The translations under genes and the position numbers were made by a program. Below, in pieces: positions 9,851-57,421 of a stretch of DNA of 64,000 nt. The number at the start of each line of letters is the position of its first letter. Position 1 is the stretch's first letter. Source of the DNA: a virus. Where the stretch lies: IMG/VR virus record IMGVR_UViG_3300048999_000191. One strand, given 5' to 3'. A model generated the notes under the pieces. It did not search any database. It was not told the origin of the DNA and saw only the letters and a list, made by a program, of their open reading frames with translations.

Positions 9851-11548
9851 TCACCGGGCTGGAGCCGGGCTGTTACTCCAGTCTGCCGGAGCGGCGAGGG
9901 AACCGGGGTCTTCCGTGGCCCGGCGGTGACAGTCGAAGAGCTTTTGCATCAAGCCTTTCTGGTCTAGTGCTTTATCGATCACATTGCGTGGATCCCACCA
10001 GCCCTCGCCGTTCGGGCCGAAGGCGTCGGAGCGGTTGACGTGCACGAACTCCCAGAGGGCCGCACCGTTCTGGGTCCGGTAGGGCTCCGGCATGGCCAGG
10101 ATGCCCTCGGCTGCTTCGACCATGCCCCGGACCTCCTCGGCCAGCCCCGGACCCTCGGGGAAACTGGCCATGGACCAGCCCGGCAGGTCCGGCGGCTTCA
10201 CGATCCACTCGTCGCCTGCCACGTCGTAGGCCGCGTAGGGCCGGATCTCGGCGATGTCCCAACCCTGGAGGTTGCAGAACCAGGTCTCGTCAAACGTGCC
10301 CGGCACGCCGGGGAAGACGTGCTGCGGATCGTTCAGCTCGGCGTGCAGCTGCTGGGTGAACTCGGCCGCGATGATCTCGTCGGCGATCCCGTCGAAACCG
10401 GGCACGGCAGCCCGCAGCGTCGAGTAGTGGAGCCCGATCGAGAGATCGAAGTCGCCATTGCCGACGCGGGCGCGGCTGGTCCAATTGCTCGCCTCTGATC
10501 CAAAGAAAACGATCTTCGCCCAGCTGGCCCAGCCCTTGTAGCCATGTCGGCGGCAGAAGTCATCGAACTGCGTGATGACGTCCATCCGGATCGAATCGCG
10601 CAGGCAGTCGTCCTCGTCGAAAAGCCGGGTGTCCAGGCCATAGGTCGGACCGAACAGACGGTCTCGGGGAGCGGTGTAGCGCGCCGTGATGGTGGTGCCG
10701 TCGGGTCGCTTCGGCAGACGACCGAGGTCCACCAGGTCCGAGACCGAGTAGTGTGCGAGGTCACCTTCATGGCTGATCGAGCCGTCAGCGTGTTGCCAAC
10801 CGTCCTGGGGGTCGTACGCCATCGGCAGCCCGCAGGGGCAGCGAGGCTGCTCCTGGGCGGCGTACCGGGGTATCCTGGCCAGCTCGTGCTCGGGTACCTC
10901 ACGCAGTACCCGGAACCCGTGCGGGCTCATCATGTCGGCGTCGTAACGAGGCTCGTTGACGTCCTCTTCCAGGGCGTGCTCTGGGCCGTTGTGCCTGACC
11001 TCGTAGACGCGCGGACGGCCGCCGGTGTCGACAGAGGACATCTCGGCATAGCTGCGCGCCATCTGCGGGTCGTGCGTCGCGTAGGCCCGGTCGGTCCGGG
11101 TCAGGCCGGTGGACACTTCTCCCTGGCCGTGCCGATCGGCGGGCACCACGCTGGTGAGATCGCGCGAGGTTCCGTGGTAGAGCGGCCGAGCCGCCGCCCT
11201 AAAATCCAGGCGGCTCCCGAGAGTCCGGCCGCGCGAGACGGACTTGCCTCGGGTGTAGCTGTTCCACCAGGCCTGCCCCTCATCCGTCCGGTCGCCGTGG
11301 TCAATCGGCGTGCGGGGGTGGCGTTCCTGGAGGTGATCCATCATCTGGCCGCCGTAGCCGTTGCCCTGGTGCTGGGGCTCGACCTCCAGCCGATCGATCT
11401 GGATCTTGTCCTTGGAGCGGCGCGGCGTTCGGTACTTCAGGAAGCCCACTCGCTCGCCGGTCTCCGGGTGGACGCCGTGGATGGTGTGGCTGCTCGGCCA
11501 CGTCGAGCCGCCGTTTTCCCGCTCTTCGTGGTGGAAGTCCAGATCCAC
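9851..11548 (-). CDS. Multidomain enzyme: GNAT acetyltransferase + Arr-like ADP-ribosyltransferase + Pol-beta-type nucleotidyltransferase
   Basis: GNAT motif A (LEVEPQHQGNGYG); ART motifs (LYHGT, AYAT, PRVYEV, FRVLREV); NTase motifs (FFGS...GDFD, PYAAYD); GAGGAGG RBS. Confidence 0.75.
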   Translation of the reverse strand: MDLDFHHEERENGGSTWPSSHTIHGVHPETGERVGFLKYRTPRRSKDKIQIDRLEVEPQHQGNGYGGQMMDHLQERHPRTPIDHGDRTDEGQAWWNSYTRGKSVSRGRTLGSRLDFRAAARPLYHGTSRDLTSVVPADRHGQGEVSTGLTRTDRAYATHDPQMARSYAEMSSVDTGGRPRVYEVRHNGPEHALEEDVNEPRYDADMMSPHGFRVLREVPEHELARIPRYAAQEQPRCPCGLPMAYDPQDGWQHADGSISHEGDLAHYSVSDLVDLGRLPKRPDGTTITARYTAPRDRLFGPTYGLDTRLFDEDDCLRDSIRMDVITQFDDFCRRHGYKGWASWAKIVFFGSEASNWTSRARVGNGDFDLSIGLHYSTLRAAVPGFDGIADEIIAAEFTQQLHAELNDPQHVFPGVPGTFDETWFCNLQGWDIAEIRPYAAYDVAGDEWIVKPPDLPGWSMASFPEGPGLAEEVRGMVEAAEGILAMPEPYRTQNGAALWEFVHVNRSDAFGPNGEGWWDPRNVIDKALDQKGLMQKLFDCHRRATEDPGSLAAPADWSNSPAPAR

Positions 11549-11582
11549 AGAATCCTCCTCGGGTTCGCTCGTTGGGGAGCGA

Positions 11583-12191
11583 TCAGTCGCGGCTGAACAG
11601 CCAGATCAGCAGGACGGTGGCGCCCAGGGTGACCACGTTGGCGATCAAGCGCTGGCGGCGCTTGCGCTTCTCCTCGTCGGAGACGAACACGTCGAAGCGG
11701 ATGTCGGTCAGCTTCTCGTAGCGCGGCAGCACCATACGGTTCAGCGCGTGCCGGTAGGCCACCACGATGAAGGGCAGCGCGACCCAGATCCAGGGGATCA
11801 CGTCCGGCGCCAGCCCGAGCAGCATCAGCGAGAGGAAGGCGAACATGCCGGTGGCGTAGTGCACCCGCTTGACCGACGCTCGGCGGGCCTCACCGCGCCA
11901 GTTCGCGTGCATGACGCGCTCGTTCTCCCGGCGGACCAGGTCGATGTCGGGCATGCCATAGAGCCGGTCGTCGCGGGTGTCGCGGTACCAGTAGACGCCG
12001 TCGCTGACGTCGATCTGCACCAGGTACTTGCGGGCGTCGGACTCGCGCTGCGGGTAGCTCAGGGCCCAGACGTCCCAGGCCGGGCCGATCTGGTCGTCGT
12101 AGGTGACGTCGAACTCGACGTCCTCGGCCGGGGGCTGCTCGCGGTAGTCACGGCGGACCTCTTCCCAGCTCAGGGGCTCGAAGTCGGTCAT
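11583..12191 (-). CDS. Hypothetical membrane protein
   Basis: Three hydrophobic helices; GGAGG RBS. Confidence 0.7.
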   Translation of the reverse strand: MTDFEPLSWEEVRRDYREQPPAEDVEFDVTYDDQIGPAWDVWALSYPQRESDARKYLVQIDVSDGVYWYRDTRDDRLYGMPDIDLVRRENERVMHANWRGEARRASVKRVHYATGMFAFLSLMLLGLAPDVIPWIWVALPFIVVAYRHALNRMVLPRYEKLTDIRFDVFVSDEEKRKRRQRLIANVVTLGATVLLIWLFSRD

Positions 12192-12224: not shown

Positions 12225-12253
12225 ATACTACCCAAATGGGTAGGGTAAGTCAA
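12225..12253 (-). promoter_or_regulatory. SigA-like promoter with operator
   Basis: -35 TTGACT, 17 bp, -10 TAGTAT; CTACCC-AAAT-GGGTAG at 12228-12243. Confidence 0.8.
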
Positions 12254-12900: not shown

Positions 12901-13437
12901 ATGCCACGACGGATCTTCACCGCAGAAGAGCGCTATCTTGCGAAGGTAGACAAGTCAGCTGGACCAGATAAGTGCTGGCCATGGACCGGTCACCGGCTCA
13001 AGAAGGGGTACGGGCTGTTCTGGGATGGAACGCGCAATGCCAGCGGGAACAACCACCTTGTAGTCGCAAGTAGGTGGGGTTACGAACATTTCGTCGCCCC
13101 GATCCCGGCAGGGCTCTTCGTACTGCATCGATGCGACAGCCCTCCTTGCCAGAACCCAAAGTGCTGGTTCCTTGGCACTAACCAGGACAACGTCAACGAT
13201 CGAGTGATCAAAGGGCGCGGTGCCAAGGGCGAGCGCAGTGCCTTCAAGCTTCACCCCGAGCTATATCGAGGCGAGAACCACTACAAGGCGACTCTGACCG
13301 AAGACGATGTCCGCGAGATCCGTAGGCGCTACGCGGCTGGCGGGATCACCCAGCAGGCGCTAGGTGATGAATTCGGGCTCCACAACGTCACCATTTCCAA
13401 GATCATCACCAAGCAGCGCTGGGCTCACGTCGACTAA
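12901..13437 (+). CDS. Free-standing HNH homing endonuclease with C-terminal HTH
   Basis: CWPWTG...VLHRCDSPPCQNP...GTNQDN; KATLTEDDVREIR; opposite strand and visibly less GC-rich. Confidence 0.9.
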   Translation: MPRRIFTAEERYLAKVDKSAGPDKCWPWTGHRLKKGYGLFWDGTRNASGNNHLVVASRWGYEHFVAPIPAGLFVLHRCDSPPCQNPKCWFLGTNQDNVNDRVIKGRGAKGERSAFKLHPELYRGENHYKATLTEDDVREIRRRYAAGGITQQALGDEFGLHNVTISKIITKQRWAHVD

Positions 13438-15407
13438 CGTCGCCGCCGGTGAGGGTTCCGTGCAGGGTTGAGCCCTCCTGCGCGGACCATCGTCCTCTTG
13501 CTCGGGGACAGTCGATTGAGCACATCCTGATCGGGTGACTCCATGTTGCGGTACGGGTTGAAGCCGCCCTGCTGGCCGGTCACGATGTTCATCTCGCGCA
13601 GCATGCCCGCCTGCCAGTTCCGGACCTGCTCGCCGAGGATGGTCCAGACCACTTCCATCATGCACTTGGCCACGTCGTCATGGACCACGGGACCGGTGTC
13701 CTGGTGCACGACGCGGTTGGTGGTCGCGGTGGTCTTCAGCTGGAGGAACTTCAGCTCCAGTTCGGCGGTCTCGTACCAGGGCGCCTCGACCCAGCCCTGG
13801 TTGATCGCGACCTTGAAGCACTCGGCCACCTGCCAGTTGTGCTTGGCGTCGGACTTCTGCTCGAAGATCGTCATGCGCTTCGGCGCGCGATTCTGCCGGA
13901 CCTTGCGGTTGAGCCGCTGGATCGGCATGGCCGAGTTGTGCTGGTCGAAGGTGAACTCGTCGATCTTGAAGCCCCAGATGATCTCCCACAGCTCGACGTC
14001 CACAACCTGGATGTAGTCGATCGTGTGGTCGGGGAACTCGGCCGGATCCCAATGATGGAGCAGGTCGAAGCGGCAGCGGAGAAAGCCGTCCTCGTGCTCT
14101 TCGGCGTGGCCGACGGCGAGACCGAAGTTGTCGTTGACCTTCGAGGGGTCCGCGTGTCCCTTGTAGAACGTCGTGAGGTTCTTGGCCGTGCGGGTCATTA
14201 CGAGGTCGTTCTGGAAGATCGCCTCGACCTTCTTCGGGTCCAGGTAGGCATCCACCACCGACTGCCAATGCGAGCGGCGCTCGACGGAGAAGGTGTCGGG
14301 GTTGGCCCGCTCCAGCTTCTCCATCCGCTCGTCGTACTCCTGGATGGCGCCCTTGAGCCGCTGGAACTTCGGGTGCGGCCGCTCCAGGTACTCGTTCAGA
14401 TCGCCGGTGAAGTCCTCCGGGAAGACGGGCAGCATGTGCGCGTCTTTCCAGTCGTAGTAGATCTCCCAGCTGGCCAGCTGGAGCATCATCATCTCGGGGT
14501 ACTCGGGGTTGCCGTCCTCGTCGAAAGCCAGCGCCATCTCCCAGTTCGCGTAGAACTGGCCGATCATCTGCCAGGGACTCGACGGGTCGATGATGAAGCC
14601 GTCCATCTTGAATTGATCAAGAGATGGAGTCGCTGAGCCATACACCTCTTCGGCGGAACGACCGGCACCCGAGGGCACCACGTGCGCCATCTCGTCGAAG
14701 CCGAGCCCGAAGGAGGCCGGGCCACGCGCGGACATCAGCGTGGCCTCCTTCGGCTGGATCGTGAAGGTGGCCATGTCCCGCGCGGTGGTGACCCCGCGCT
14801 GATTCTGCCGCCGCAACCGGACGAAGTCGTGCGGTGCGTAGATGGTCAGGTTCTCCCCGAGCGACCGGGAGATGTACTTGGCGAAGCACGGGGCGCCCTG
14901 GATGACGTTGACGACGTCCTTCCAGAGGTTCTCCCGGGCCTGCTGCTTCTTCCCGGCGTAGATGAACATCGCCAGCTGCTTGTCGCGGTCGATCCCGTAG
15001 TACTCCTGGGGATCACCCTTGGCCATGAAGCGCCAGAGCACGTAGGCCATGGCCAGCGCCGAGACGTAACCCTTCCCGGCGCGGCGGCCGAGGACCAGCA
15101 GGACCTCGCGGAAGTAGAAGTAGCCCTTGAGCCGGAGCGCGGCCATGCGCTGGCGGATCTTCGGCACGATGCCGTTGTTCCCGTGCCGCTCGAAGGAGGC
15201 CTCCCACTCGTCGATGACCATGTGGTCGTACTCGGTGAGGAGGTCGTTGCGCAAGAAGATGACCTTGAGCAGGGTTGCCTGACGCGGGTAGAGCTGCCCC
15301 CGGCCACACCAGCGCGGGTTGATCGCAAAGGTGATGGGGTCAGGAACCGGCAGCCCCGTGAACGCTGCGAAGTCCACGGGGCTGAAGGCCGGAGGCGAGA
15401 GGGTCAT
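13434..15407 (-). CDS. terL: Terminase large subunit
   Basis: LYPRQ motif, Walker A VLGRRAGKG, Walker B GFDEMAH, nuclease HADPS and HDD. Confidence 0.85.
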   Translation of the reverse strand: MTLSPPAFSPVDFAAFTGLPVPDPITFAINPRWCGRGQLYPRQATLLKVIFLRNDLLTEYDHMVIDEWEASFERHGNNGIVPKIRQRMAALRLKGYFYFREVLLVLGRRAGKGYVSALAMAYVLWRFMAKGDPQEYYGIDRDKQLAMFIYAGKKQQARENLWKDVVNVIQGAPCFAKYISRSLGENLTIYAPHDFVRLRRQNQRGVTTARDMATFTIQPKEATLMSARGPASFGLGFDEMAHVVPSGAGRSAEEVYGSATPSLDQFKMDGFIIDPSSPWQMIGQFYANWEMALAFDEDGNPEYPEMMMLQLASWEIYYDWKDAHMLPVFPEDFTGDLNEYLERPHPKFQRLKGAIQEYDERMEKLERANPDTFSVERRSHWQSVVDAYLDPKKVEAIFQNDLVMTRTAKNLTTFYKGHADPSKVNDNFGLAVGHAEEHEDGFLRCRFDLLHHWDPAEFPDHTIDYIQVVDVELWEIIWGFKIDEFTFDQHNSAMPIQRLNRKVRQNRAPKRMTIFEQKSDAKHNWQVAECFKVAINQGWVEAPWYETAELELKFLQLKTTATTNRVVHQDTGPVVHDDVAKCMMEVVWTILGEQVRNWQAGMLREMNIVTGQQGGFNPYRNMESPDQDVLNRLSPSKRTMVRAGGLNPARNPHRRRR

Positions 15408-15991
15408 CCCTGGACGGTCTCGGAACCCCGGAAGCGCCGCGCGTCGTCCGGGAACCGCTCGCTGTAGGCACTGGTCGACATCCGCTCGCCCGAGGGCCAC
15501 AGCTCGACCATGTCGCCGTCGTCGGTGGCCCAGCTGACGAACGCGGGCTCGTTGCCGGTCAGCTTCGCCTTCTGGAGCGCGTAGACCCGGGCCTTGTCCG
15601 GCGAGTCCTCCTCGGCGGCGACCTCGGGCAGATCGCGGTTCGTGAAGCACACGAACGCGCCGTACACAGCCATGCTCTGCTCCTTTGTGGATTTGCGGAG
15701 GATCAGGTTGTACTCGACCCGGTCGCCCTCCGCCTTGCGTCCCCACCGGCTCGTAAGGACGTCGAACTGGTCACCGTTGACCTCCAGCGCCGAACCGACC
15801 TCGGGAAGGTCGAAGGGGAACACCCCGAAGCCGCTGATGCCGCGATAGTCGTCCTGGCTCGCGGCATGACGCCACGCGAGGAAGGCAGCACGCACGTCCA
15901 GGACGCTGGACTCCCGGGGCACAGGAAGACCGGCCACCACGCACCCGGCGAGCAGCGCGGCCAGCTCCTCGGTGGTCTTCCGCTCGCTCAC
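15404..15991 (-). CDS. Hypothetical protein
   Basis: GTG start with GGAGG RBS; coupled to terL. Confidence 0.55.
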   Translation of the reverse strand: MSERKTTEELAALLAGCVVAGLPVPRESSVLDVRAAFLAWRHAASQDDYRGISGFGVFPFDLPEVGSALEVNGDQFDVLTSRWGRKAEGDRVEYNLILRKSTKEQSMAVYGAFVCFTNRDLPEVAAEEDSPDKARVYALQKAKLTGNEPAFVSWATDDGDMVELWPSGERMSTSAYSERFPDDARRFRGSETVQG

Positions 15992-34750: not shown

Positions 34751-35110
34751 TTACGAACGCCTCTCAAGGACGTTCCGGTCGACCCATGTCCGAAATGGGA
34801 TCACGATCGCGTCCATGCTCTTGCGCAGGGGTTCTTGATCGTAAGTCGCTTCGGAGTGGATCTCCAGCACCCGGGTTCCGGGACGGTTTACCAGCAGCTT
34901 CCGTACCGTGTCTTCACCCGGCTGGAGGATGAACCAGCACTCGGCATCCGCTCCGGCCAGATAGCCGGTCACGTACTCGATCTGCTCGTTGATAACGATC
35001 GTCGCGGTGACCTTCTGGCCGAACTTCACGCTGCGGGCGGCCTGCATGAGCGTCACGGTCGCACGCTCAGCTAGGACCTCCCTCGGCATGTTCGTCGGCG
35101 TGCTTCGCAC
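34751..35110 (-). CDS. Hypothetical protein
   Basis: GTG start after AGGAGG. Confidence 0.6.
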   Translation of the reverse strand: MRSTPTNMPREVLAERATVTLMQAARSVKFGQKVTATIVINEQIEYVTGYLAGADAECWFILQPGEDTVRKLLVNRPGTRVLEIHSEATYDQEPLRKSMDAIVIPFRTWVDRNVLERRS

Positions 35111-35173
35111 GTGGTCCTCCTGATGTCCTCCCTGGGGCACACATTGGGGTGCGGCCCCGAGGAAATGGGCAGG

Positions 35174-36121
35174 TTAGGGAGTCGTCCTCCCTTCCGCCGC
35201 GCGCGGCCGGAACGGACGGCCGACCGCGCTGGCCTGGGTCCAGAGAGCGTTGCGCCGGAAACTGGCCTGAATTCCGGCCAGCTCGTACCGGGTCAGGAAG
35301 GCGTCGAGCACGGCGCCGTCGGGGCTGTCGCACGGCGCGGGCCGGAACCGCCGAATGTGGTTTCCGTAATCCGGGATCGGGTCGGCGGTCAGGTCCATCA
35401 GCCGGACGTTGCGCCGCACCAGCTCGACGTGCTCGGGGTACTTCTCCTGGATCGCCTTGGCGATATTCCAGTCGAAGTCGTTCAGGAGCTTCAGCGCCCG
35501 CTTCGGCCCGACGCCCTTGATCCCCTCGATGTTGTCCGACGTGTCGCCGGTGAGCGCTCCCACCAGGGCCCATAGATGCGGCTCGAAGCCGTTCTTCTCC
35601 ACGAAGCGCTCGTGGGTCCACTTCTCGTAGATCCCGCCGCCGACCGGCTTGCGCGCGGTCGTGTTGATGGCCCAGGGGCTCGGACCGAGCAGCTGGTAGA
35701 GGTCCTTGTCGCCGGAGAGGATGATGATCTCTTCGGCCTGATGGATCTTCCACCACCAGGTGGCCACCAGGTCGTCGGCCTCGAACTCGGCCAGCCGCTG
35801 CTGAAAGATCCCGGCGGCGTCCAGGAACTCCCGCATCAGCGGGAACGCGGCGGTGTAGTCCTTCCCGGGCTCAGGTACGGCCGTCTTGCGGTTCGCCTTG
35901 TAGGTGGGCAGCAGGCGGTGCCGGAACTCGCTCTTGCCGTCCCAGGCCACCGCGACGTGGGTCGGGTGCTCCTCGCCGATGACCTTGGCCAGCGAGTTAA
36001 TGAAGAACATCAGCGCGGCGGTCGGGACGCCGTCGTCGGTCGAGAGGGTGTTCGTCGCCCAGGAGGCGTGGGCGGCCCTGGCCGCGATGTTGTTGCCGTC
36101 GACCAGCAGGTACTTGGTCAC
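35174..36121 (-). CDS. 5'-3' exonuclease / flap endonuclease (PolA N-terminal-like)
   Basis: LLVDGNN, YKANR, FEADD, SGDKDLYQL, GDTSDNIEGIKGVGPK. Confidence 0.92.
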   Translation of the reverse strand: MTKYLLVDGNNIAARAAHASWATNTLSTDDGVPTAALMFFINSLAKVIGEEHPTHVAVAWDGKSEFRHRLLPTYKANRKTAVPEPGKDYTAAFPLMREFLDAAGIFQQRLAEFEADDLVATWWWKIHQAEEIIILSGDKDLYQLLGPSPWAINTTARKPVGGGIYEKWTHERFVEKNGFEPHLWALVGALTGDTSDNIEGIKGVGPKRALKLLNDFDWNIAKAIQEKYPEHVELVRRNVRLMDLTADPIPDYGNHIRRFRPAPCDSPDGAVLDAFLTRYELAGIQASFRRNALWTQASAVGRPFRPRAAEGRTTP

Positions 36122-36525
36122 GAGGTCTCACCTTCGAGTCGAGCCATTCCGGCGAGCACCTTCATGGCAATGTGGTTGGACAGGCCGCGCCAGATCTGCG
36201 CGGCCGCGTCCCGGCGCTGAGGGCCGGTGCTGGGCAGTACCTCGGTGGCGCTGAGCTGCTCCAGGATCAGCTCGACCGCCCGGCTCATCTCCTCGTCCAC
36301 CACGTCGCGCGGGTTCGGCCGGGGGCCGTGCTGGTTACCGGAGATGTGCTCGCAGGCTTCGCACAGCATCATCCCGTCGCCGTGCAGGCACTCGTGGGTG
36401 GCCTCGCGCTTACGGCAGCCGTTGCACGTCAGGCTCTCGTGGTGCTCACAGCGCAGCCCCGTGCGTTCGGTGACGCACATCGAGCCATCGGCCAGGCCGA
36501 AGCCGCAGATCGGTGCCTCGGTCAC
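36118..36525 (-). CDS. Cys/His-rich zinc-finger protein
   Basis: Multiple CxxC and CxH motifs. Confidence 0.55.
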   Translation of the reverse strand: MTEAPICGFGLADGSMCVTERTGLRCEHHESLTCNGCRKREATHECLHGDGMMLCEACEHISGNQHGPRPNPRDVVDEEMSRAVELILEQLSATEVLPSTGPQRRDAAAQIWRGLSNHIAMKVLAGMARLEGETS

Positions 36526-37076
36526 GAGACCTCCCAGTGCAGCATCTCGCCGCGCCGGATCGCCTGCGTAGCCTCCTCGATCGCCTGCTCGTACTGCGGG
36601 TTCTGGAAAGCGGCCGGTTCCCGGCCCGCATCCAGCTCCTCCAGCCGCTGGAGGACCAGCAGGACCATCTGTCGCCGGGAGGCCAGCTGGCCGTTCCAGT
36701 GCTCCAGCAGGAAGCCGGTGTCGCCCAGCGTGTAGCCGTGCTGGAGCGCCGAGGCCTTGACGTGCCGGATGATCATCGCGAACTCCGGCGGCTTCAGCGC
36801 GCGCTCACGCAGCAGCAGGTGCGCGAGGTCCTCGATCTGGGACAGGTTGAATCGGCGGTGCCCGGCATCGGTGCGGTCCGGTTCCCAGTCCTCTCGGTAT
36901 CCGAAGAGCCGCTTGCGCAGCCAGTTCGTCGACTTGCCGAAGAAGACCTCGGCAACCTCCTTGGTGGCGTACGTGGGGCCCTTGGCGGCCATCTCGGGGG
37001 TCACCCAGCGATCGCGGTCGGGTGGTTCTAGTACCCCCTCGCCACTGATCACGAAGGGTTCGGTCGTTTCGAGCAT
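36522..37076 (-). CDS. MerR-like HTH regulator
   Basis: YATKEVAEVFFGKSTNWLRK...RTDAGHRRF. Confidence 0.7.
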   Translation of the reverse strand: MLETTEPFVISGEGVLEPPDRDRWVTPEMAAKGPTYATKEVAEVFFGKSTNWLRKRLFGYREDWEPDRTDAGHRRFNLSQIEDLAHLLLRERALKPPEFAMIIRHVKASALQHGYTLGDTGFLLEHWNGQLASRRQMVLLVLQRLEELDAGREPAAFQNPQYEQAIEEATQAIRRGEMLHWEVS

Positions 37077-37095
37077 GAGCGCCTCCAGGGCGGAA

Positions 37096-37132
37096 GAGGA
37101 GACCCGGCGTCGCGGGGGCGCCGGGTCTCCTC
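37096..37132 (-). terminator. Terminator hairpin
   Basis: GAGGAGACCCGGCG / CGCCGGGTCTCCTC. Confidence 0.65.
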
Positions 37133-37136
37133 GGGA

Positions 37137-37838
37137 TCAGTCGTTCTTGCGCAGGTACAGCGACGCGCGAGCCGAACCGGTCTTCGTGCCCTCCAGGAGC
37201 AGGTGCGCGCGGACCGGGTTCTTCCGGAGCCACTCCAGCGCGCGGCCCTCGTCGACCACGCGGATCTGGCGGGTCATGGCCAGGAAGTCCTCGTTGCTGA
37301 GGATCTCGTCCTCGACGAGGTCACGCAGGCGGTCCAGATCCAGCTCGGTCTTGCCGCCGGACACCTCGCGGGTCAGCTTGACGTCCAGACCCGGCACGAC
37401 GGCCGACTCCTTGTCCGCGACGATCGCCCAGCCCTCCTTGGTGTGCTGGGTGTCCACGTCAATCTTGCCGTCGTGCGCGGCGATCGCGTCGAAGTGGTTG
37501 AAGATCGCGGCCTTGATCTGCTCGCGCGAGCGGTCGAGGCCCTTCGAGGCCTTGTCCCAGAACACGTAGGTGCGGGTGAGCGTCTCCAGCTCGGCCTGGG
37601 TCAGCATCCGGCGCCGGTCCGGCAGCTCCAACTCGGCGAGCAGCTTGGCGACCTGGGAGACCGCCTCTTCGGCGTCCTCGTTGAGCGCGGCGTTCTGCGG
37701 GATCGGCGTCTCGGCCAGCTGGACAAGGTCCTTCTCCGGCTTCGCGGCCTGGAGGACGTCGGCGACGGTGGCCCGGACCTTGGACAGCGCGGCGCGCACG
37801 CCGTTCAGCTGCGGGGTGACCTCGATGGAATCGGACAT
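37137..37838 (-). CDS. Hypothetical phage protein
   Basis: 233 aa; GGGAGGG RBS. Confidence 0.7.
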   Translation of the reverse strand: MSDSIEVTPQLNGVRAALSKVRATVADVLQAAKPEKDLVQLAETPIPQNAALNEDAEEAVSQVAKLLAELELPDRRRMLTQAELETLTRTYVFWDKASKGLDRSREQIKAAIFNHFDAIAAHDGKIDVDTQHTKEGWAIVADKESAVVPGLDVKLTREVSGGKTELDLDRLRDLVEDEILSNEDFLAMTRQIRVVDEGRALEWLRKNPVRAHLLLEGTKTGSARASLYLRKND

Positions 37839-48317: not shown

Positions 48318-51300
48318 GGCGTAGCCACTCCTGGGTAGACGTTGAGGCCGGGGAAGACCGCCTCGCCCGGGTAGCCGGGCTGAACGGGGATCGGGGCCGT
48401 GCTGGGACCGGGTGTGGGCACCCGCTCCAGAATCTGGAATCGGTACCACCAGCTGCGGGGGACCGGCAGATTCCAGGTCTGGAAGCGCGCATCCTTGCGA
48501 ATATCGCCGTACTGGTCGTAGGGCATCAGGTTCGGGCTCACCGGTGTCAGTGCCGCGCGGTGATCGATCCCGGAGAACATGCCGCCGTACCAGGGCCGGA
48601 TGGTCACCGAAGACACCGTGGCGCCGGGCCGGTAGCTCACCGCTCGCCAGACCAGCGCGTTGCCCGGCTTCTGCACCAGGTTCACGGCGCTGATCTGCGG
48701 AAAGACCAGCACACCGGACGGGTTGTTGCGGATTTCGTAGGCGGGGATGAACGTGGTGCCGCCGTCGTTGGAGAACGACCAGATGATCGGTTCGGCGTAG
48801 AGCGAGATGTTGTCGACGTCCCAGACGTCCTTGGTGGCGCCCTGCTGCACCACCCGGGCGTAGACGTTCAGGTGCTCGGTGTCCTTCTGTGCCAGCACCT
48901 CGTCATAGGTCAGCGTTCCGTTGCGGGTGGCCGAGGCCCAGGTGGGCTTGTTCACCGCGAGCGAGATCAGCTTCGCGTTCGGGCTCCAGTGGAAGTCCTG
49001 GAAGGACGTGTCGATCGTGTAGTTCGCCCCGCCCGGCCGCGTTCCGCTGTAAACCGACCCCGCCAGCCCGCGCTTGGTGCCCTGCATCAGGTTCACCGCG
49101 CTCGGCGCCGCAGTGCCCTGAAGAACGCTGTCGTAGAGCACGTAGACCTGACGCCCGGAGGTCGCGGCGGGATTGAACAGCTTCGAGTCGGCGAAGACGA
49201 TCGTTACGTTCTTGTTCAGCGGGATGCCGCCCGGTAGGAAGCCTGTCTGGAGGACGGCACCGTTCTGCACCAGGTTGCCCAGCGCATCGAGGTAGATCCC
49301 GTGGTCGAAGTCGAGGCAGGCCACCATCCCGCGTCGCCCGTTGGGGTCGACCTGACCTGCCGTGCCCGCGATCGCGCGCGCCCGGAAGGTCAGGTTGCCA
49401 TTCCACTCCTCGGTGTCGGTCCAGAAGACCGCGTTGTCCGTGGAGGCCACCAGCGTCGCCCCCACCTCGTCGTGGTTGGCGGACTCGGGGTTGTTCGTGG
49501 TGTCCCAGGTGGCCAGGGGTGTCGTCGTGGCGTTCGAGGTGCCGACGTTCCAGTGACGCCCGGCGGAGTCCACCCAGGACTGCTGGACGGTCGCGTCGAT
49601 CCAGGCGCCGTTGCCCTTGCGCGGCATTCCGGCGATGGTCGGGCCCGGGATGCGGCCGTAGGGCGCGGGCGTCCAGCTGAACTTGGTGAACTTCTGATTC
49701 AGGTGGCCCTTGATGCCCTTGGTGACCTGCGCGCCGAAGTTGTGCGTCCGGGTCGACTTCCAGACCCCGTTGACCCAGAACATCATCGCGTACTGGTCGT
49801 ACGGGCTGCCGGTCGGATCGACCTTGTCCGAGGGGACGTAGTCGGCCGGGAGGAAGTCGACACTGATCACATCGCCGGACTGCACGGTGTAGGAGGTGTT
49901 GTTCGCGCCGAGCACCAGGCCGCGCGAGGCCGGAAGGTCGGCACCGAACAGGGCCAGCGCGCCGACCTCGGTGATGAAGAACGGGTCGAGGCGCAGCAGG
50001 GCGAAGGTACCCGGCGTGGCGCTGCCCATGGTGCCCACGGTGACCGACAGCGTGCCCCAAGGGCTCCCGGTGTCCACCCAGTCCGTCTGCCCGTCCGCCG
50101 TGACCGTGGCGGCGGCCGAGACGATGTCCAGGCTCTGCTCGTTCCCGCTGCCGTCGACCGGCCACTGCCACAGCTGACCACTGTCGAGCACGGGCAGGGT
50201 GGTCGCGTTCGGCCCGCCGAAGGTCGCACTCAGGCCCTGACTGCTGTATCCGCTGCTGGCGAAGTCGCTCCAGACCCAGGGAGCCGGGCTGGTCCCCTCG
50301 CCGATGGTGTAGCTGGCGTACCACTCGGTGATCTGGCCCGCCTTCACCTGGGCCTCGGCGTCGGCCAGTACCCGGCCGTCGGCCACATTGACCAGCTGGA
50401 CCGAGAGGGGCAGCGACAGGTCCGCGTCCGCGATCGCGCGCGCGGCGACGTGTACCCGGCCGCCGAGCGGCAGGGAGATCGGCTTCGAGCTGATGCCGCC
50501 GACCTCGCCGGGGATCTGCGAACCGATGGTCACCGCGCCCCAGGTGGCGTTCAGCCCGGTGATACCGCCCCAGGTGTGATAGCCCAGGGAGACCCGGCCC
50601 CAGGTGAGCGGCGGCTGGGAGCGGTTGATTCGCTTCGTCGAGGCCAGCGTGGGCTCCTGGCCGGAGGAGTCGGAGAGCACGGCGTCGCCGACCGAGGTCC
50701 AGCTGGCGATCTCGGGATCGCTCAGATCCGGATCGGGCAGCAGCTGGTCCGGATCGCTCTGCTGGGTCGCGAACTGCACGGCGGTGACGACCCGGTTGGA
50801 CGGGAAGACCTTGCTCTGCACCTGCGCGTAGGCCGCGTCCCCGGAGGTGAGCTGGTGGTCCTGTGGCAGGATCCAGTTGCCACCGTCGGCCACATTGGAC
50901 AGATCGTAGAACAGATCCACGTACTGGTTGGTGTCGTCGGTGTTCAGGTAGCTCAGCTTGTAGGCCGCGATCGAGCGCAGGCCCACGAAGTAGCCGATCT
51001 TCGTGACCTGCGAGTAGTTGATCACCTGGTAGTTGTGGACACCGGTCGACTCCCAGGACGGCGTCGAGCCGGTGGCGTGCATGGGCAGGAACGACCAGGC
51101 CCAGTAGGCGTCGGCCACCTTGGCCCGCACCGCGTTGTCGTAGATCACCCGGGCCGTGGTGTTCGACTTCGGCGCCTTCGTCCCGACGATCGCCGTGCGG
51201 TTGTTGTCCAGCGACTGCGTCAGCGTGTTGACGACGTAGACGTTGTCCCGCCCAGGCAGCAGCTCCGCGAGACCGGCTGCCGAGGTCGGCGCCGAGCCGG

Positions 51301-54505: not shown

Positions 54506-57421
54506 TCACGCCCCGATCATGAAGGTGTTCGGCGCCTTGGCAATGATGCGCGAGGAGTGGAACACGGGGTACTCGCTGTTGCCGAAGGTCGCATCGATCG
54601 CCCGGCCGCCGGAGGCGTAGAGCGAGAGCTGGCTGTTCGCCGTCCACGGCGACATCTGGGCCATGGCGTAGTTGGTCCCATCGTCGGTGGAAGTCAGGAA
54701 CCGGACGTTGTCCACGCCAGGTACATTGTGGACAGTCTGGAGAACATCGGAAACCTGAAGTGACGCGCCGAAGCCGAGGCTGGAGCACAGGGCGCTCAGC
54801 GCGATATCGATGTTCGTGTTCACCGAGCTGGCCTCGTACGCGCGGTCATAGACGATGGCGAAGTGGAATTTGACCATGCGGCGCAGCCCGCAATGGGTCT
54901 GCGCGTCGGTGCCGACCAGCCGCCACAGAGCGATGTTGTCCTGCACATCGCGGGCGATCCGGTTGTAGTTGTAGGTGATCGCGAACACCGCGTTGTTCGG
55001 CGGTACCCGGGTGGTCTGCCAGGACAGGCCGAACAACGATCCCGGGCTCATCCCGAAGGCGTCTTCGCGCTGGGTGATCCAGTAGTCCGAGCCCTCGGTG
55101 TAGGTCACGCCGTTGATCACCAGGGTGTCCGGCACGGCCAGCACCGGGCCGTAGGCCAGCGGGATGAAGATATTGCCCACCGGAGGCACGGGTGTAGCGG
55201 CGCTGGCCTGGGAGAAGGCCTGGTTGTAGTACGGGTCGTTGAACCCGGAGGTGAACAGCCGTGAGTTCGAGAAGCTCACGCTCTGCGTGGCGACATCGGC
55301 GATCGTGCCGTTGATCCACACGTCGACCCGGTTGTTGATCCCGCCCTTGGCGAAGCGGGTGTTGGCCGGGTCGTTGCGTGAGGCTCTCGGCACGTACTCG
55401 AAGTCGAGATCGTAGATCCCGTCCGGCATGCCGGTCAGCGCGGTCAGTGCCGCAGTGGCGCTGGTCCCGTTGGTCGGGTTCGACGGCGTGAAGGTGAAGT
55501 TCGTGCCCTGGGTGAGCAGGTTCCCCGCGTCGATGTCGGCGCCGCAGTAGACGTTGTCCGGGAAGATGTAGGCCGCCCGGAGCACGGTGCTCGCCGCCGT
55601 CCCCGCCACCACCTGGATCTGCTCGCGGTAGCGCTTCGAGGACCCGAGCACGTTCACCTGCGTCACCGCGCGGGTGTTCGGCATCGTGGGGTCCTGGGGC
55701 GTTGCCAGGGCGATCGCCTGGTACATGCTCTGGGTCCCCGCCAGCGAGCGGAAGACGGTGTTCCGGAAGCGCGTGCGCAGGTCGGCGTCGGACTCCTGGT
55801 TCGAGCCGCCGGAGAGCGGGCCCGCGTTCACCACCTTGGCGATGCCGGAGACGGCCGTGGCCACGGTGACCAGCATCCCGGCCGCGACGTTGCCGCTCGT
55901 GCCCGCCACGACCGCCTGAACCGGCACGTCGGCGGTCAGCTGCCCGGGGCTCATCACGGCGGACACGGTGGTCATCACGTAGATGATCGGGTTCGTCTGG
56001 GCGACCACCTGCGTGCCGGGCGGGATGACCAGGGCCGTGGTGGCGGCGAACTGGTCGTTCGGCCGGGTGAAGGTGACCACGCCCTGCGACCGGGACGACG
56101 GGATCCGCGTGATGCCGAACAGTGCGCAGTTGTGTGCCGCCATGCCGCCGAGCAGCGTGTAGGAGTTGTCCACGTCGACTTCGAGGTTGTGAACGGTCCC
56201 CTGGTAGGCGACCAGCCTGTGCTCGGCGATAGCGTGGCCCAGCATCCCGTCGAGGATTACCCCGGCAGGAGCGTATGCGCCGCGAGCCAGCTCCGGCGTC
56301 GTCTCCCTGGTGATTTCCGCGATGCGCCGCGCGTACTCGCCCCGCGCCGTGAGCCGGTAGGCGGTCCGCTTGCCTGCGCCGCCTTCCTTCACGTCCATCC
56401 GCGTGAAGATCTTCTTCCGCAGCAGCAGCGCACGGATCTGGTAGACGAGTGCCGGGGACGTCGTGACGAAGTCGGCGACGGTGTCTGTGGTCGAGACGTG
56501 GCCGTCGCCTTGCCAGACGGCGGCCAGCAGGTCGGTGAGGTCGCTGCCGGACCAGAACACTTCCCAGGGGATGTGCTTGTCCGCGCAGCCGTGGCCCAGT
56601 AAGCTCCGCAGTTTTGCGGCGAACTTCTTGCTGAAGACCGTCAGCTGCCGCTCGCCGGAGTTGGGCTTGCTGTGGCTGACCCGGGCGAAGCCCCATTCGC
56701 TCTTGATCAGCTCTTCGATCGTCTCGTGGTACTCGGTCTCGTGTTCGGCCAGCGAAAAGACGATGCGCCCGCACTCAGTGGTCGAGCCCTCGGCGAGAAA
56801 CCAGCCGTAGAGCCGCTGAAGGTTCTTGTTCAGCTGCGAGCGCTTCGCCGGTTCCGGGGCTGCGCCCCAGACCACATCGCCCTTCCGCAGCTCTCCGGCG
56901 GCGATCCATTCTCGGCGGACGTGCTCCGTGGACCACCGGGCCCGCGAGCCCGTCCCGCGCAGCGCGAAAGAGCGCACGCCCTTAGCCGGGATGAGCCATT
57001 CCCGCTTGGTGGCGAGCAGCGGATGGTTGCCCGTCATGGACACCGATGGCTGGCCCAGCGGGCGCATCGTCACGATGTCCTCGTCCACGCAGCGGACCGA
57101 CGAAGCAAGCACCGTCCGGTGCTTGCCCGTGTGCGAGATCACCGTCTCACCAGGCCCGACCTCTTCGATCGGACGCGGGCCGTCGGCAGTCACGACAAGC
57201 GTGCCCGGGACGAAGCAGAAGTCGTCGAGATCGCCGCCGGATTTCGAGTCGATGTCGTACTGGTACTGGATCAGGTGCGAGTCCGAGTAGGCCTCGGCGA
57301 TCGACTCCGAGACGGCGTCGATCAGCTTCCGGGCCACGGTGCCTACGGAGACATCCAGGTCCGGCTCGGCGGCGTTGAGCGCAGCGACCATCTTGGCCGC
57401 CACGTCGCCGGTCGAAGTCAT
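54506..57421 (-). CDS. Baseplate J-like wedge protein with intein
   Basis: LDDF|CALFGITR, GNVAAG, SGGSNQESDADLRTR, C-terminal VPGVDNV. Confidence 0.88.
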   Translation of the reverse strand: MTSTGDVAAKMVAALNAAEPDLDVSVGTVARKLIDAVSESIAEAYSDSHLIQYQYDIDSKSGGDLDDFCFVPGTLVVTADGPRPIEEVGPGETVISHTGKHRTVLASSVRCVDEDIVTMRPLGQPSVSMTGNHPLLATKREWLIPAKGVRSFALRGTGSRARWSTEHVRREWIAAGELRKGDVVWGAAPEPAKRSQLNKNLQRLYGWFLAEGSTTECGRIVFSLAEHETEYHETIEELIKSEWGFARVSHSKPNSGERQLTVFSKKFAAKLRSLLGHGCADKHIPWEVFWSGSDLTDLLAAVWQGDGHVSTTDTVADFVTTSPALVYQIRALLLRKKIFTRMDVKEGGAGKRTAYRLTARGEYARRIAEITRETTPELARGAYAPAGVILDGMLGHAIAEHRLVAYQGTVHNLEVDVDNSYTLLGGMAAHNCALFGITRIPSSRSQGVVTFTRPNDQFAATTALVIPPGTQVVAQTNPIIYVMTTVSAVMSPGQLTADVPVQAVVAGTSGNVAAGMLVTVATAVSGIAKVVNAGPLSGGSNQESDADLRTRFRNTVFRSLAGTQSMYQAIALATPQDPTMPNTRAVTQVNVLGSSKRYREQIQVVAGTAASTVLRAAYIFPDNVYCGADIDAGNLLTQGTNFTFTPSNPTNGTSATAALTALTGMPDGIYDLDFEYVPRASRNDPANTRFAKGGINNRVDVWINGTIADVATQSVSFSNSRLFTSGFNDPYYNQAFSQASAATPVPPVGNIFIPLAYGPVLAVPDTLVINGVTYTEGSDYWITQREDAFGMSPGSLFGLSWQTTRVPPNNAVFAITYNYNRIARDVQDNIALWRLVGTDAQTHCGLRRMVKFHFAIVYDRAYEASSVNTNIDIALSALCSSLGFGASLQVSDVLQTVHNVPGVDNVRFLTSTDDGTNYAMAQMSPWTANSQLSLYASGGRAIDATFGNSEYPVFHSSRIIAKAPNTFMIGA
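56129..57217 (-). mobile_element. Intein (363 aa) with LAGLIDADG endonuclease in baseplate J
   Basis: CFVPGTLV...TGNHPL...YGWFLAEG...LAAVWQGDG...VHNLEVDVDNSY...AHN; +1 Cys. Confidence 0.9.

What the first reader, a model, noticed from the sequence alone, without database searches (positions are those of the whole stretch)
9851..11548. Three-enzyme fusion: acetyltransferase + ADP-ribosyltransferase + nucleotidyltransferase, possibly a virion-packaged polyprotein
Seen: one 565-aa ORF carries a GNAT domain (about aa 1-100, VEPQHQGNGYG), an ART domain with Arr-like motifs (about aa 120-220), a small Cys/His unit (CPCG...WQH...H) and a Pol-beta NTase (GS...DFD, about aa 290-565). The domain junctions share short Arg/Ala linkers (FRAAA, RYAA, RYTA). 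The gene has a strong RBS and lies shortly downstream of terL. Known: T4 packages and injects the ART Alt, and MuF/polyvalent phage proteins fuse such enzyme domains. Inference: this is a host-takeover or anti-defence polyprotein that applies three different covalent marks (acetyl-CoA, NAD+, NTP donors), possibly cleaved at the linkers by a prohead protease and injected. This is the best candidate for a new system in the window.
Basis: partly seen in the sequence, partly recalled or inferred. Interest (0 to 1): 0.85.

Follow-up and report, generated by a model that had tools for sequence, protein, structure and literature searches.

The report
Modular three-enzyme phage effector protein
A large Streptomyces-type phage encodes one 565-residue protein that joins an acetyltransferase, an Arr-like ADP-ribosyltransferase, a small zinc-knuckle unit and a phage-specific nucleotidyltransferase-like module; it is a small new member of the known "polyvalent protein" class, and nothing yet shows that it travels in the virus particle.

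Summary
ORF 9851-11548 lies on the minus strand (GTG start, GAGGAGG five bases upstream) and has four modules.
- aa 1-113: GNAT (Pfam hit; fold Z 10.9).
- aa 118-222: Arr-clade ART (Foldseek top hits Arr, Z 9.5; H125/Y156/D196 conserved).
- aa 228-274: CCHH unit.
- aa 289-565: a Pfam-less module (pLDDT 94.7) with invariant GS...DxD, whose structural matches are Pol-beta NTases but weak (Z up to 5.8).

Relatives shuffle these modules with RelE-like, 2H, NUDIX, ParB and SprT modules. All sit in one conserved slot after terL, in proteins of 159 to 3306 aa. This is the polyvalent-protein class of Iyer et al. 2017, and the scan has reported this family before on other DNA.

Packaging and cleavage remain unshown. 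The gene is second in a cassette driven by a SigA-like promoter with a palindromic operator, a signal absent from the window's tail and replication genes. None of about 75 homologues scanned in Pfam carries a MuF or portal domain. However, the joints carry a real recurring motif, [KR]-x-A-[AS], about 27-fold denser before module starts than inside modules. So a protease-site reading is not excluded.

Verdict: new member of a known kind, of moderate interest.

The parts
9851..11548 (-). Whole ORF, 565 aa plus stop, GTG start
   Evidence: the same product is called in an independent assembly
11554..11560 (-). Shine-Dalgarno GAGGAGG, 5 nt before the GTG
11210..11548 (-). Module A, aa 1-113: minimal GNAT acetyltransferase with motif Q59-x-x-G62-x-G64
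   Evidence: PF00583 29.1 bits against a cut-off of 20.7. Fold Z 10.9-9 to Elp3, GCN5, YhhK and RibT GNATs. Conserved IDHGDRT..G..WW..Y in 61 copies
11189..11215 (-). Joint motif SRLDFRAAA (aa 112-120) between GNAT and ART
   Evidence: The strict pattern gives 16 hits in the family against 0 in shuffles, always at joints or termini
10883..11197 (-). Module B, aa 118-222: Arr-clade ADP-ribosyltransferase with H125, Y156, D196
   Evidence: Foldseek top hits 2hw2, 9iaf and 9iba, E 2e-4, prob 1.0. Z 9.5, rmsd 3.2 over 96 aa. Homologous modules hit PF12120. Triad at least 90% conserved in 37 copies
10727..10867 (-). Module C, aa 228-274: small C237-x-C239 ... H253 ... H260 unit, a candidate zinc knuckle; moves independently
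   Evidence: model pLDDT only 52-70
9854..10684 (-). Module D, aa 289-565: phage-specific Pol-beta-NTase-like module with G350-S351 ... D366-x-D368. It has two subdomains: D1 289-412 and D2 416-565
   Evidence: pLDDT 94.7. Invariant residues in 176 copies. All leading fold matches are NTases, but E is only 1e-2 and Z at most 5.8. BFVD whole-fold matches reach E 1.6e-16. Atlas assigns it to viral NTase clusters. No Pfam match
12225..12253 (-). Cassette promoter TTGACT-17-TAGTAT with palindromic operator CTACCCAAATGGGTAG (12228-12243)
   Evidence: conserved before the same cassette in relative L001
11583..12191 (-). First gene of the cassette: a 202-aa protein with hydrophobic (likely membrane) segments, 34 bp upstream of the target
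   Evidence: the same 202-aa gene precedes the polyvalent gene in L001 and L012
13434..15407 (-). terL-like gene (real start at M114 of the long ORF), flanking the polyvalent slot
   Evidence: phrog_2 E 8e-10; 94% identical to the 656-aa gene of L001
12901..13437 (+). HNH endonuclease gene on the opposite strand, between terL and the cassettes

Best explanation
This is a small polyvalent effector of a roughly 155-kb Streptomyces-type myophage. Independent enzyme modules are strung on one chain:
- a minimal GNAT (acetyl-CoA donor);
- an Arr-clade H-Y-D ADP-ribosyltransferase (NAD+ donor);
- a CCHH zinc-knuckle-like unit;
- a phage-specific Pol-beta-type nucleotidyltransferase-like module (NTP donor).

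Shown here: the four-module anatomy; conservation of the catalytic motifs; free shuffling of the modules among relatives inside one conserved slot after terL; and a host-type operator-controlled promoter in front of the cassette.

Inferred: the protein is made inside the infected cell by the host RNA polymerase, probably early. Each module then puts a different covalent mark on host macromolecules (proteins, or RNA/nucleotides) to take over the cell or disarm defences. The fast turnover of modules reflects an arms race. The targets are unknown.
For: Anatomy and folds.

Catalytic residues are conserved:
- GNAT Q-x-x-G-x-G;
- ART H125/Y156/D196, at least 90% conserved in 37 copies;
- NTase G350 and D366/D368, 100% conserved in 176 copies.

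Shuffling. The 196 relatives show 33 different orders of modules A to D. Added modules include RelE/YafQ-like, 2H, NUDIX, ParB_N, SprT-like and ART-PolyVal.

Hypervariable slot in a conserved genome. terL is 94% identical to that of L001, yet the neighbouring polyvalent gene there has a 300-aa insert. The slot after terL is kept in relatives whose polyvalent genes are 3035+2262 aa and 2745 aa and in a Streptomyces sp. MH60 contig.

Expression signal. TTGACT-17-TAGTAT with the palindrome heads the two-gene unit. In the window, five such promoters lie only at 5.8-12.8 kb, and none lies in the tail (44-62 kb) or replication genes. The same promoters stand before the cassette in L001 and L002.

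The class and its GNAT, ART and NTase modules are described in PMC5512222.
Against: No target or activity is known.

The NTase assignment is weak by fold score (Z at most 5.8), has no Pfam support, and its third catalytic carboxylate is not assigned.

The module's own sequence does not reach Pfam Arr-ms or ART-PolyVal.

Early timing is inferred from promoter form only. In L001 the first cassette promoter overlaps the terL stop, so read-through from terL (late expression) is possible.

The conserved position next to terL and the joint motif fit the packaged-cargo reading as well.
Confidence: 0.6

Rival explanations
1. Virion cargo polyprotein. The chain is made late, loaded into the prohead, cut at the [KR]-x-A-[AS] joints by the head-maturation protease, and injected with the DNA, like T4 Alt and the internal proteins.
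For: The joint motif is real. Both hits in the target lie on joints. Its density is 1.29 per 100 aa before module starts against 0.049 inside modules. In every module class it exceeds all within-zone shuffles.

A longer form occurs as an N-terminal leader (MTDISATSFFRQAG...) and once as a C-terminal end. This recalls cleavable capsid-targeting leaders of T4 internal proteins (own knowledge).

The slot next to terL is conserved over wide divergence. PMC9503650 argues that ARTs near terminase or portal genes are packaged.

Some relatives carry SprT-like zincin modules, which PMC5512222 proposes as processing peptidases.

An earlier unchecked note reports the same motif in this genome's capsid and scaffold.
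Against: No MuF, portal or other virion domain appears in about 75 homologues scanned.

The cassette has its own host-type promoter with an operator, absent from the window's tail genes.

terL here lies far from the head genes; in relative C169 the portal is at 21 kb and terL at 112 kb.

The target lacks the N-terminal leader form of the motif, and its third joint (C|D) has no exact motif.

The motif is found at only 12-33% of joints.

No head protein of this genome could be examined.
Confidence: 0.22
2. Small-molecule detoxifier. The three transferases inactivate diffusible anti-phage or antibacterial metabolites in Streptomyces communities, since each fold is best known from an antibiotic-modifying enzyme (AAC, Arr, ANT).
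For: The only ART structures matched are rifamycin-modifying Arr enzymes. The first Foldseek hit of module D is ANT(4')-IIb, with AadA and AAD(9) close behind. Aminoglycoside acetyltransferases are among the tied GNAT matches.

PMC9503650 raises this idea for phage Arr homologues. Aminoglycosides act as anti-phage agents in Streptomyces (PMC9239200).
Against: Partner modules in relatives act on macromolecules or nucleotides: RelE-like RNase, ParB_N, SprT peptidase, 2H, NUDIX.

Fold ties do not single out the antibiotic enzymes; Elp3, GCN5 and CCA-adding enzymes score as well or better.

Known aminoglycoside modifications do not remove the anti-phage effect (PMC11350373).
Confidence: 0.06
3. 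Toxin-like modules with an in-cis regulator. GNAT, ART and (in relatives) RelE-like units act as translation- or nucleic-acid-directed toxins. The single-copy NTase module acts like an MNT-type nucleotidyltransferase that modifies and controls the other modules or a partner, for example for host shut-off or exclusion of rival phages.
For: Module D is never duplicated in 176 proteins, while GNAT occurs up to four times and ART up to three times per protein. MNT antitoxin NTases are among the best structural matches (1no5, 8xeo, 8xeh). RelE/YafQ-like modules occur without an antitoxin.
Against: The single-copy pattern is partly an effect of searching with D. D also occurs alone as roughly 300-aa proteins in many phages. 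The Z scores to MNT tie with those to CCA-adding and other NTases.
Confidence: 0.07

Closest known systems
Polyvalent proteins of phages and conjugative elements (Iyer, Burroughs, Anand, de Souza, Aravind 2017, PMC5512222)
   Same: Several unrelated enzyme domains sit in one phage polypeptide. The H-Y-D type ART, GNAT and Pol-beta NTase are all listed there as protein-modifying modules, and GNAT next to ART is a described pairing. Relatives add 2H, ParB, NUDIX and zincin modules, and there is strong combinatorial shuffling.
   Different: The NTases described there are minimal versions from Firmicute conjugative elements fused to ArdC-N. Here the module is a 277-aa, two-subdomain, Pfam-less family of actinobacterial phages. 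The ART is nearer to Arr than to the N4-like ART-PolyVal family. No virion-linked domain is present, and the gene lies in a host-type promoter cassette.
Arr, rifampin ADP-ribosyltransferase (PDB 2hw2; Pfam PF12120)
   Same: The fold matches (Foldseek prob 1.0; Z 9.5, 21% identity), the size is about 105 aa, and the H-Y-D residues are conserved. Homologous modules in relatives pass the Pfam cut-off.
   Different: The module is part of a multi-domain phage protein. Its own sequence does not reach the Pfam model, it has a 3-aa insert after the third catalytic strand, and its substrate is unknown.
T4 Alt and MuF-fused head-packaged effectors
   Same: A phage ART placed near packaging genes and thought to modify host factors.
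   Different: Alt is an R-S-E ART with proven packaging and injection. Here the ART is of the H-Y-D type, there is no MuF domain, and packaging is not shown.
Earlier reports of this scan on the same family (e1-3414312, e1-5837285, e1-5837289)
   Same: The same NTase-like anchor module and the same slot in roughly 150-kb actinobacterial phages, with ParB, ART, RelE and zincin modules.
   Different: This copy is one of the shortest, and it is the GNAT-ART-Zn-NTase combination.

Membership tests
Polyvalent proteins (Iyer et al. 2017) | Two or more domains of disparate biochemical activity in one polypeptide | tested here: met
   GNAT, ART, CCHH unit and NTase-like module
Polyvalent proteins (Iyer et al. 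2017) | Encoded by a phage or conjugative element | tested here: met
   The window holds terL, baseplate, tail and replication genes. Relatives hold a portal and a head protease
Polyvalent proteins (Iyer et al. 2017) | Domains drawn from the shared polyvalent repertoire and recombined among relatives | tested here: met
   33 module orders; partners are 2H, NUDIX, ParB_N, SprT-like, ART-PolyVal and RelE-like
Polyvalent proteins (Iyer et al. 2017) | Delivered with the DNA (virion-packaged or transferred) | not testable with these tools
   The context is mixed: terL-adjacent slot and joint motif on one side, host-type operator promoter and no virion domain on the other
GNAT superfamily | Profile match above the curated cut-off, and acetyl-CoA motif Q/R-x-x-G-x-G/A | tested here: met
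   PF00583 29.1 bits against 20.7; Q59-H-Q-G62-N-G64
GNAT superfamily | GNAT fold | tested here: met
   Z 10.9 to 9.0 over aa 1-110 for more than 300 GNAT chains
Arr / rifampin ADP-ribosyltransferase (PF12120) | Profile match of the module itself | tested here: not met
   No PF12120 or PF18760 hit at E up to 1 for this protein. Homologous modules in P0062, P0065, L007 and P0177 do match
Arr / rifampin ADP-ribosyltransferase (PF12120) | Arr fold with H-Y-D catalytic residues | tested here: met
   2hw2, 9iaf and 9iba are the top Foldseek hits; Z 9.5; H125, Y156 and D196 are at least 90% conserved
Arr / rifampin ADP-ribosyltransferase (PF12120) | Rifamycin as substrate | not testable with these tools
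   Needs an enzyme assay
Pol-beta nucleotidyltransferase superfamily | hG[GS] ... [DE]h[DE]h motif | tested here: met
   F-F-G350-S351, then 14 residues, then D366-F-D368-L; G and both D are invariant in 176 copies
Pol-beta nucleotidyltransferase superfamily | Third catalytic carboxylate on a later strand | tested here: inconclusive
   Candidates D431 and D442 are only 70-90% conserved. The invariant strand residues are T422 and N426
Pol-beta nucleotidyltransferase superfamily | NTase fold | tested here: inconclusive
   All leading matches are NTases (ANT(4'), CdnD/E, AadA, CCA/A-adding, MNT, cGAS), but Foldseek E is at best 1e-2 and Z at most 5.8. BFVD and Atlas neighbours are labelled NTase in part
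Pol-beta nucleotidyltransferase superfamily | Match to a curated NTase profile | tested here: not met
   No Pfam family for this module in the target or in 34 relatives at E up to 1; no PDB sequence match
MuF-fused / Alt-like head-packaged effectors | MuF or other head-associated domain in the same chain | tested here: not met
   None in the target or in about 75 homologues scanned in Pfam

The most novel reading that the evidence does not exclude
The trio is a counter to chemical defence. On this reading, a phage-borne acetyltransferase, Arr-type ADP-ribosyltransferase and ANT-like nucleotidyltransferase inactivate diffusible anti-phage or host-poisoning antibiotics (rifamycin-, aminoglycoside- or similar compounds) made by neighbouring actinomycetes, and so keep the infected Streptomyces cell productive.
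Probability: 0.06. Interest if true: 0.85.

Novelty: new member of a known kind. Interest (0 to 1): 0.38.

Why it matters
The protein gives a compact, four-module, experimentally tractable example of the polyvalent effectors that large actinobacterial phages keep in a fast-changing slot next to terL.

Three points are useful beyond this gene.
- The last module defines a widespread phage family with no Pfam model: 461 representative clusters, single-copy in every chain, and also found free as roughly 300-aa proteins. Its NTase chemistry and target are unknown.
- The joints carry a short motif, [KR]-x-A-[AS], sometimes in the longer form SRL[DG]F[RK]xAA or FFRxAA. This can be tested directly as a processing or targeting signal.
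- Related 152-157 kb contigs sit in three cultured Streptomyces isolates, so the biology could be studied at the bench.

If the modules hit transcription, translation or defence factors, they could become tools, as Alt, ModB and Arr have.

Tried and rejected
- Whole-genome search of the window's own genome: none is held.
- Megablast of 20 kb against cultured phages: no match. Only distant free-standing copies of module D turned up in Borockvirus-like Streptomyces phages, next to the endolysin gene.
- Sequence searches of the PDB with the protein and with profiles of both halves: nothing useful.
- Pfam for module D: none in the target or 34 relatives.
- Reaching this genome's head genes to test the protease-site idea failed. 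Exact-product look-ups return only 5-17 kb contigs, and the records behind L001 and L002 are not held.
- As a substitute I read the whole related contig of Streptomyces sp. MH60. The motif pattern in its head region is only suggestive.
- PF05065 capsid search in that genome: no hit.
- The long joint motif is not found in any other ORF of the window.
- One search compared the wrong reading frame of L006 with terL and found nothing. The right frame is 53% identical.
- Rejected: RYTA as a linker, since it is part of module D.
- Rejected: an operon with terL. An opposite-strand HNH gene and two promoters intervene.
- Rejected: assembly chimera. The product is confirmed independently.

Full report
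**The ORF.** It lies on the minus strand at 9851-11548: 565 aa, GTG start, GAGGAGG at 11554-11560 five bases upstream. The window has about 67% G+C and no close match among cultured phages. An independent assembly encodes exactly the same product. Colinear homologues of 78% identity exist. The gene is therefore real and not a chimera.

**Modules.** Places where 65 close homologues stop aligning, plus phmmer with each piece against 196 relatives, give four units: A aa 1-113, B 118-222, C 228-274 and D 289-565. D itself has an insertion point between D1 (289-412) and D2 (416-565).

- **A is a minimal GNAT.** PF00583 scores 29.1 bits against a cut-off of 20.7. The motif Q59-x-x-G62-x-G64 is present. 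The fold gives Z 10.9 to 9 to Elp3, GCN5, YhhK, RibT and aminoglycoside acetyltransferases; these are ties, so no substrate can be read off.
- **B is an ART of the Arr clade.** The best Foldseek hits of the N-terminal half are Arr structures 2hw2, 9iaf and 9iba (E 2e-4, prob 1.0), and VIA-align gives Z 9.5, rmsd 3.2 over 96 aa, 21% identity. H125, Y156 and D196 are at least 90% conserved in 37 copies. The module's own sequence misses Pfam Arr-ms, but homologous modules in relatives pass it.
- **C has conserved C237, C239, H253 and H260** and moves on its own. The model is poor there (pLDDT 52-70), so "zinc knuckle" is an inference.
- **D folds with pLDDT 94.7**. In 176 copies G350, D366 and D368 are invariant and S351 is 95% conserved. 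Several other residues are also invariant (T422, P437, Y438, W448, H503, R506, F510, K526).
  - Every leading structural match is a Pol-beta NTase: ANT(4')-IIb, CdnD/E, AadA, CCA- and A-adding enzymes, MNT, cGAS.
  - The scores are weak, however: Foldseek E 1e-2 and Z at most 5.8 over the first 170 residues.
  - No Pfam model or PDB sequence matches.
  - Predicted viral structures share the whole two-subdomain fold (E 1.6e-16, TM 0.71), and some neighbours are labelled nucleotidyltransferase.
  - I read D as a divergent, phage-specific NTase with about 80% confidence. The third catalytic carboxylate is not assigned.

**Relatives.** An exhaustive HMMER search found 461 representative clusters, almost all through D, in proteins of 159 to 3306 aa.
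- Orders of modules A to D take 33 forms. GNAT occurs up to four times and ART up to three times in one chain, but D never occurs twice.
- Added modules include RelE/YafQ-like, 2H/LigT, NUDIX, ParB_N, SprT-like zincin, ART-PolyVal, cupin and DnaJ-type zinc fingers.
- This is the architecture that Iyer et al. named polyvalent proteins. That paper lists H-Y-D ARTs, GNATs (often next to an ART) and Pol-beta NTases as their protein-modifying modules (PMC5512222). The NTases described there are a different, minimal family from Firmicute conjugative elements.
- The scan has already reported this family on other DNA (e1-3414312, e1-5837285, e1-5837289).

**Genomic setting.** On the minus strand the window runs from tail and baseplate genes (44-62 kb) through replication genes (17-40 kb) to a terL-like gene, and then to small cassettes.
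- The terL ORF is over-extended; its real extent is 13434-15407. It is 94% identical to the terL of relative L001, yet L001's neighbouring polyvalent gene (P0004) has a 300-aa insert. The slot is therefore a hotspot in an otherwise stable genome.
- The slot right after terL is kept in much more distant relatives. It holds 3035+2262 aa in L023, 2745 aa in L024, and GNAT-D plus an Arr/ART-PolyVal/2H gene in 152-157 kb contigs of three Streptomyces isolates. The host is thus very probably Streptomyces.
- In the MH60 contig the portal is at 21 kb and terL at 112 kb. Being next to terL therefore does not mean being in the head module.

**Expression signal.** A promoter TTGACT-17-TAGTAT, with the palindrome CTACCCAAATGGGTAG over its spacer and -10, lies at 12253-12225. 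It heads a two-gene unit: a 202-aa hydrophobic protein (11583-12191), then the target 34 bp later.
- Five such units lie at 5.8-12.8 kb. None lies in the tail or replication genes of the window; one degenerate copy at 42.4 kb lacks the hexamers.
- The same promoters precede the cassette in L001 and L002.
- An opposite-strand HNH gene separates terL from the cassettes here.
- A host-type promoter with an operator argues for synthesis by the host polymerase, probably early. In L001, however, the first promoter overlaps the terL stop, so late read-through cannot be excluded.

**Joints.**
- [KR]-x-A-[AS] occurs only twice in the protein, at R117 (A|B) and R228 (B|C).
- Family-wide it has 1.29 hits per 100 aa in the 16 residues before module starts, against 0.049 inside modules. 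Before each module type it exceeds every one of 200 within-zone shuffles: B 13/40, C 13/45, D 28/169, A 10/80.
- These counts come from related sequences, so they overstate independence.
- A longer form, SRL[DG]F[RK]xAA or FFRxA[AGS], gives 16 strict hits against 0 in shuffles. It lies at first joints, at N-termini and once at a C-terminus.
- RYTA is not a linker but the conserved start of D.
- Whether the motif is a head-protease site could not be tested, because the head genes of this genome are out of reach. In the MH60 relative the pattern is only suggestive.

**Verdict.** The three-enzyme fusion is confirmed and belongs to a known class. The most likely working model is an intracellular, probably early, multi-transferase effector against host macromolecules (0.6). 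Head-packaged, protease-cut cargo stays a live rival (about 0.2). A small-molecule detoxifier reading is novel but unlikely, because of the partner modules and because known aminoglycoside modifications do not relieve the anti-phage effect (PMC11350373).

Noticed in passing
window 54506-57421 (-): The baseplate-J gene carries Hint_2 and LAGLIDADG_3 hits, so it holds an intein. An ARAGORN tRNA-Tyr call at 55197-55287 (+) lies inside it on the other strand and is probably spurious.
   Followed up: no
window 12901-13437 (+): An HNH endonuclease gene is inserted on the opposite strand between terL and the first cassette promoter. It is absent from relative L001, where the promoter overlaps the terL stop.
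   Followed up: partly
window 5857, 6793, 8605, 12228, 12811 (palindrome starts): There are five promoter units: TTGAC -35, the CTACCC-N4-GGGTAG palindrome, and a TAGTAT/TAGTGT -10. Most have a CTGGAGG ribosome site, and each heads a small cassette. Other readers of this scan have noted them already.
   Followed up: partly
window 13434-15746 (-): The 770-aa ORF over-extends terL. The conserved protein starts at M114 (13434-15407, 657 aa), with a GRRAGKGY Walker-A-like motif.
   Followed up: yes
L006-L008 and L015-L022 (Streptomyces sp. MH60, A0642, NPDC021080): Three cultured Streptomyces assemblies contain 152-157 kb contigs colinear with the window; one has coverage 196. This suggests a carrier state or plasmid-like persistence of these phages.
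   Followed up: partly
MH60 contig, 49781-50704 (L017:9781-10704): A structural-region ORF ends in an Arr-ms domain (PF12120, E 5e-7), so a second Arr-like ART sits among virion genes of a relative.
   Followed up: partly
MH60 contig, 35029-37467 (L016:15029-17467): The head-maturation protease domain (aa 113-306) is part of an 813-aa protein with about 500 further residues of unknown function. KAAS310 lies at the end of the protease domain.
   Followed up: no
L024:5861-9613: The terL-like gene of this relative is 1250 aa, with faint intein and LAGLIDADG hits.
   Followed up: no
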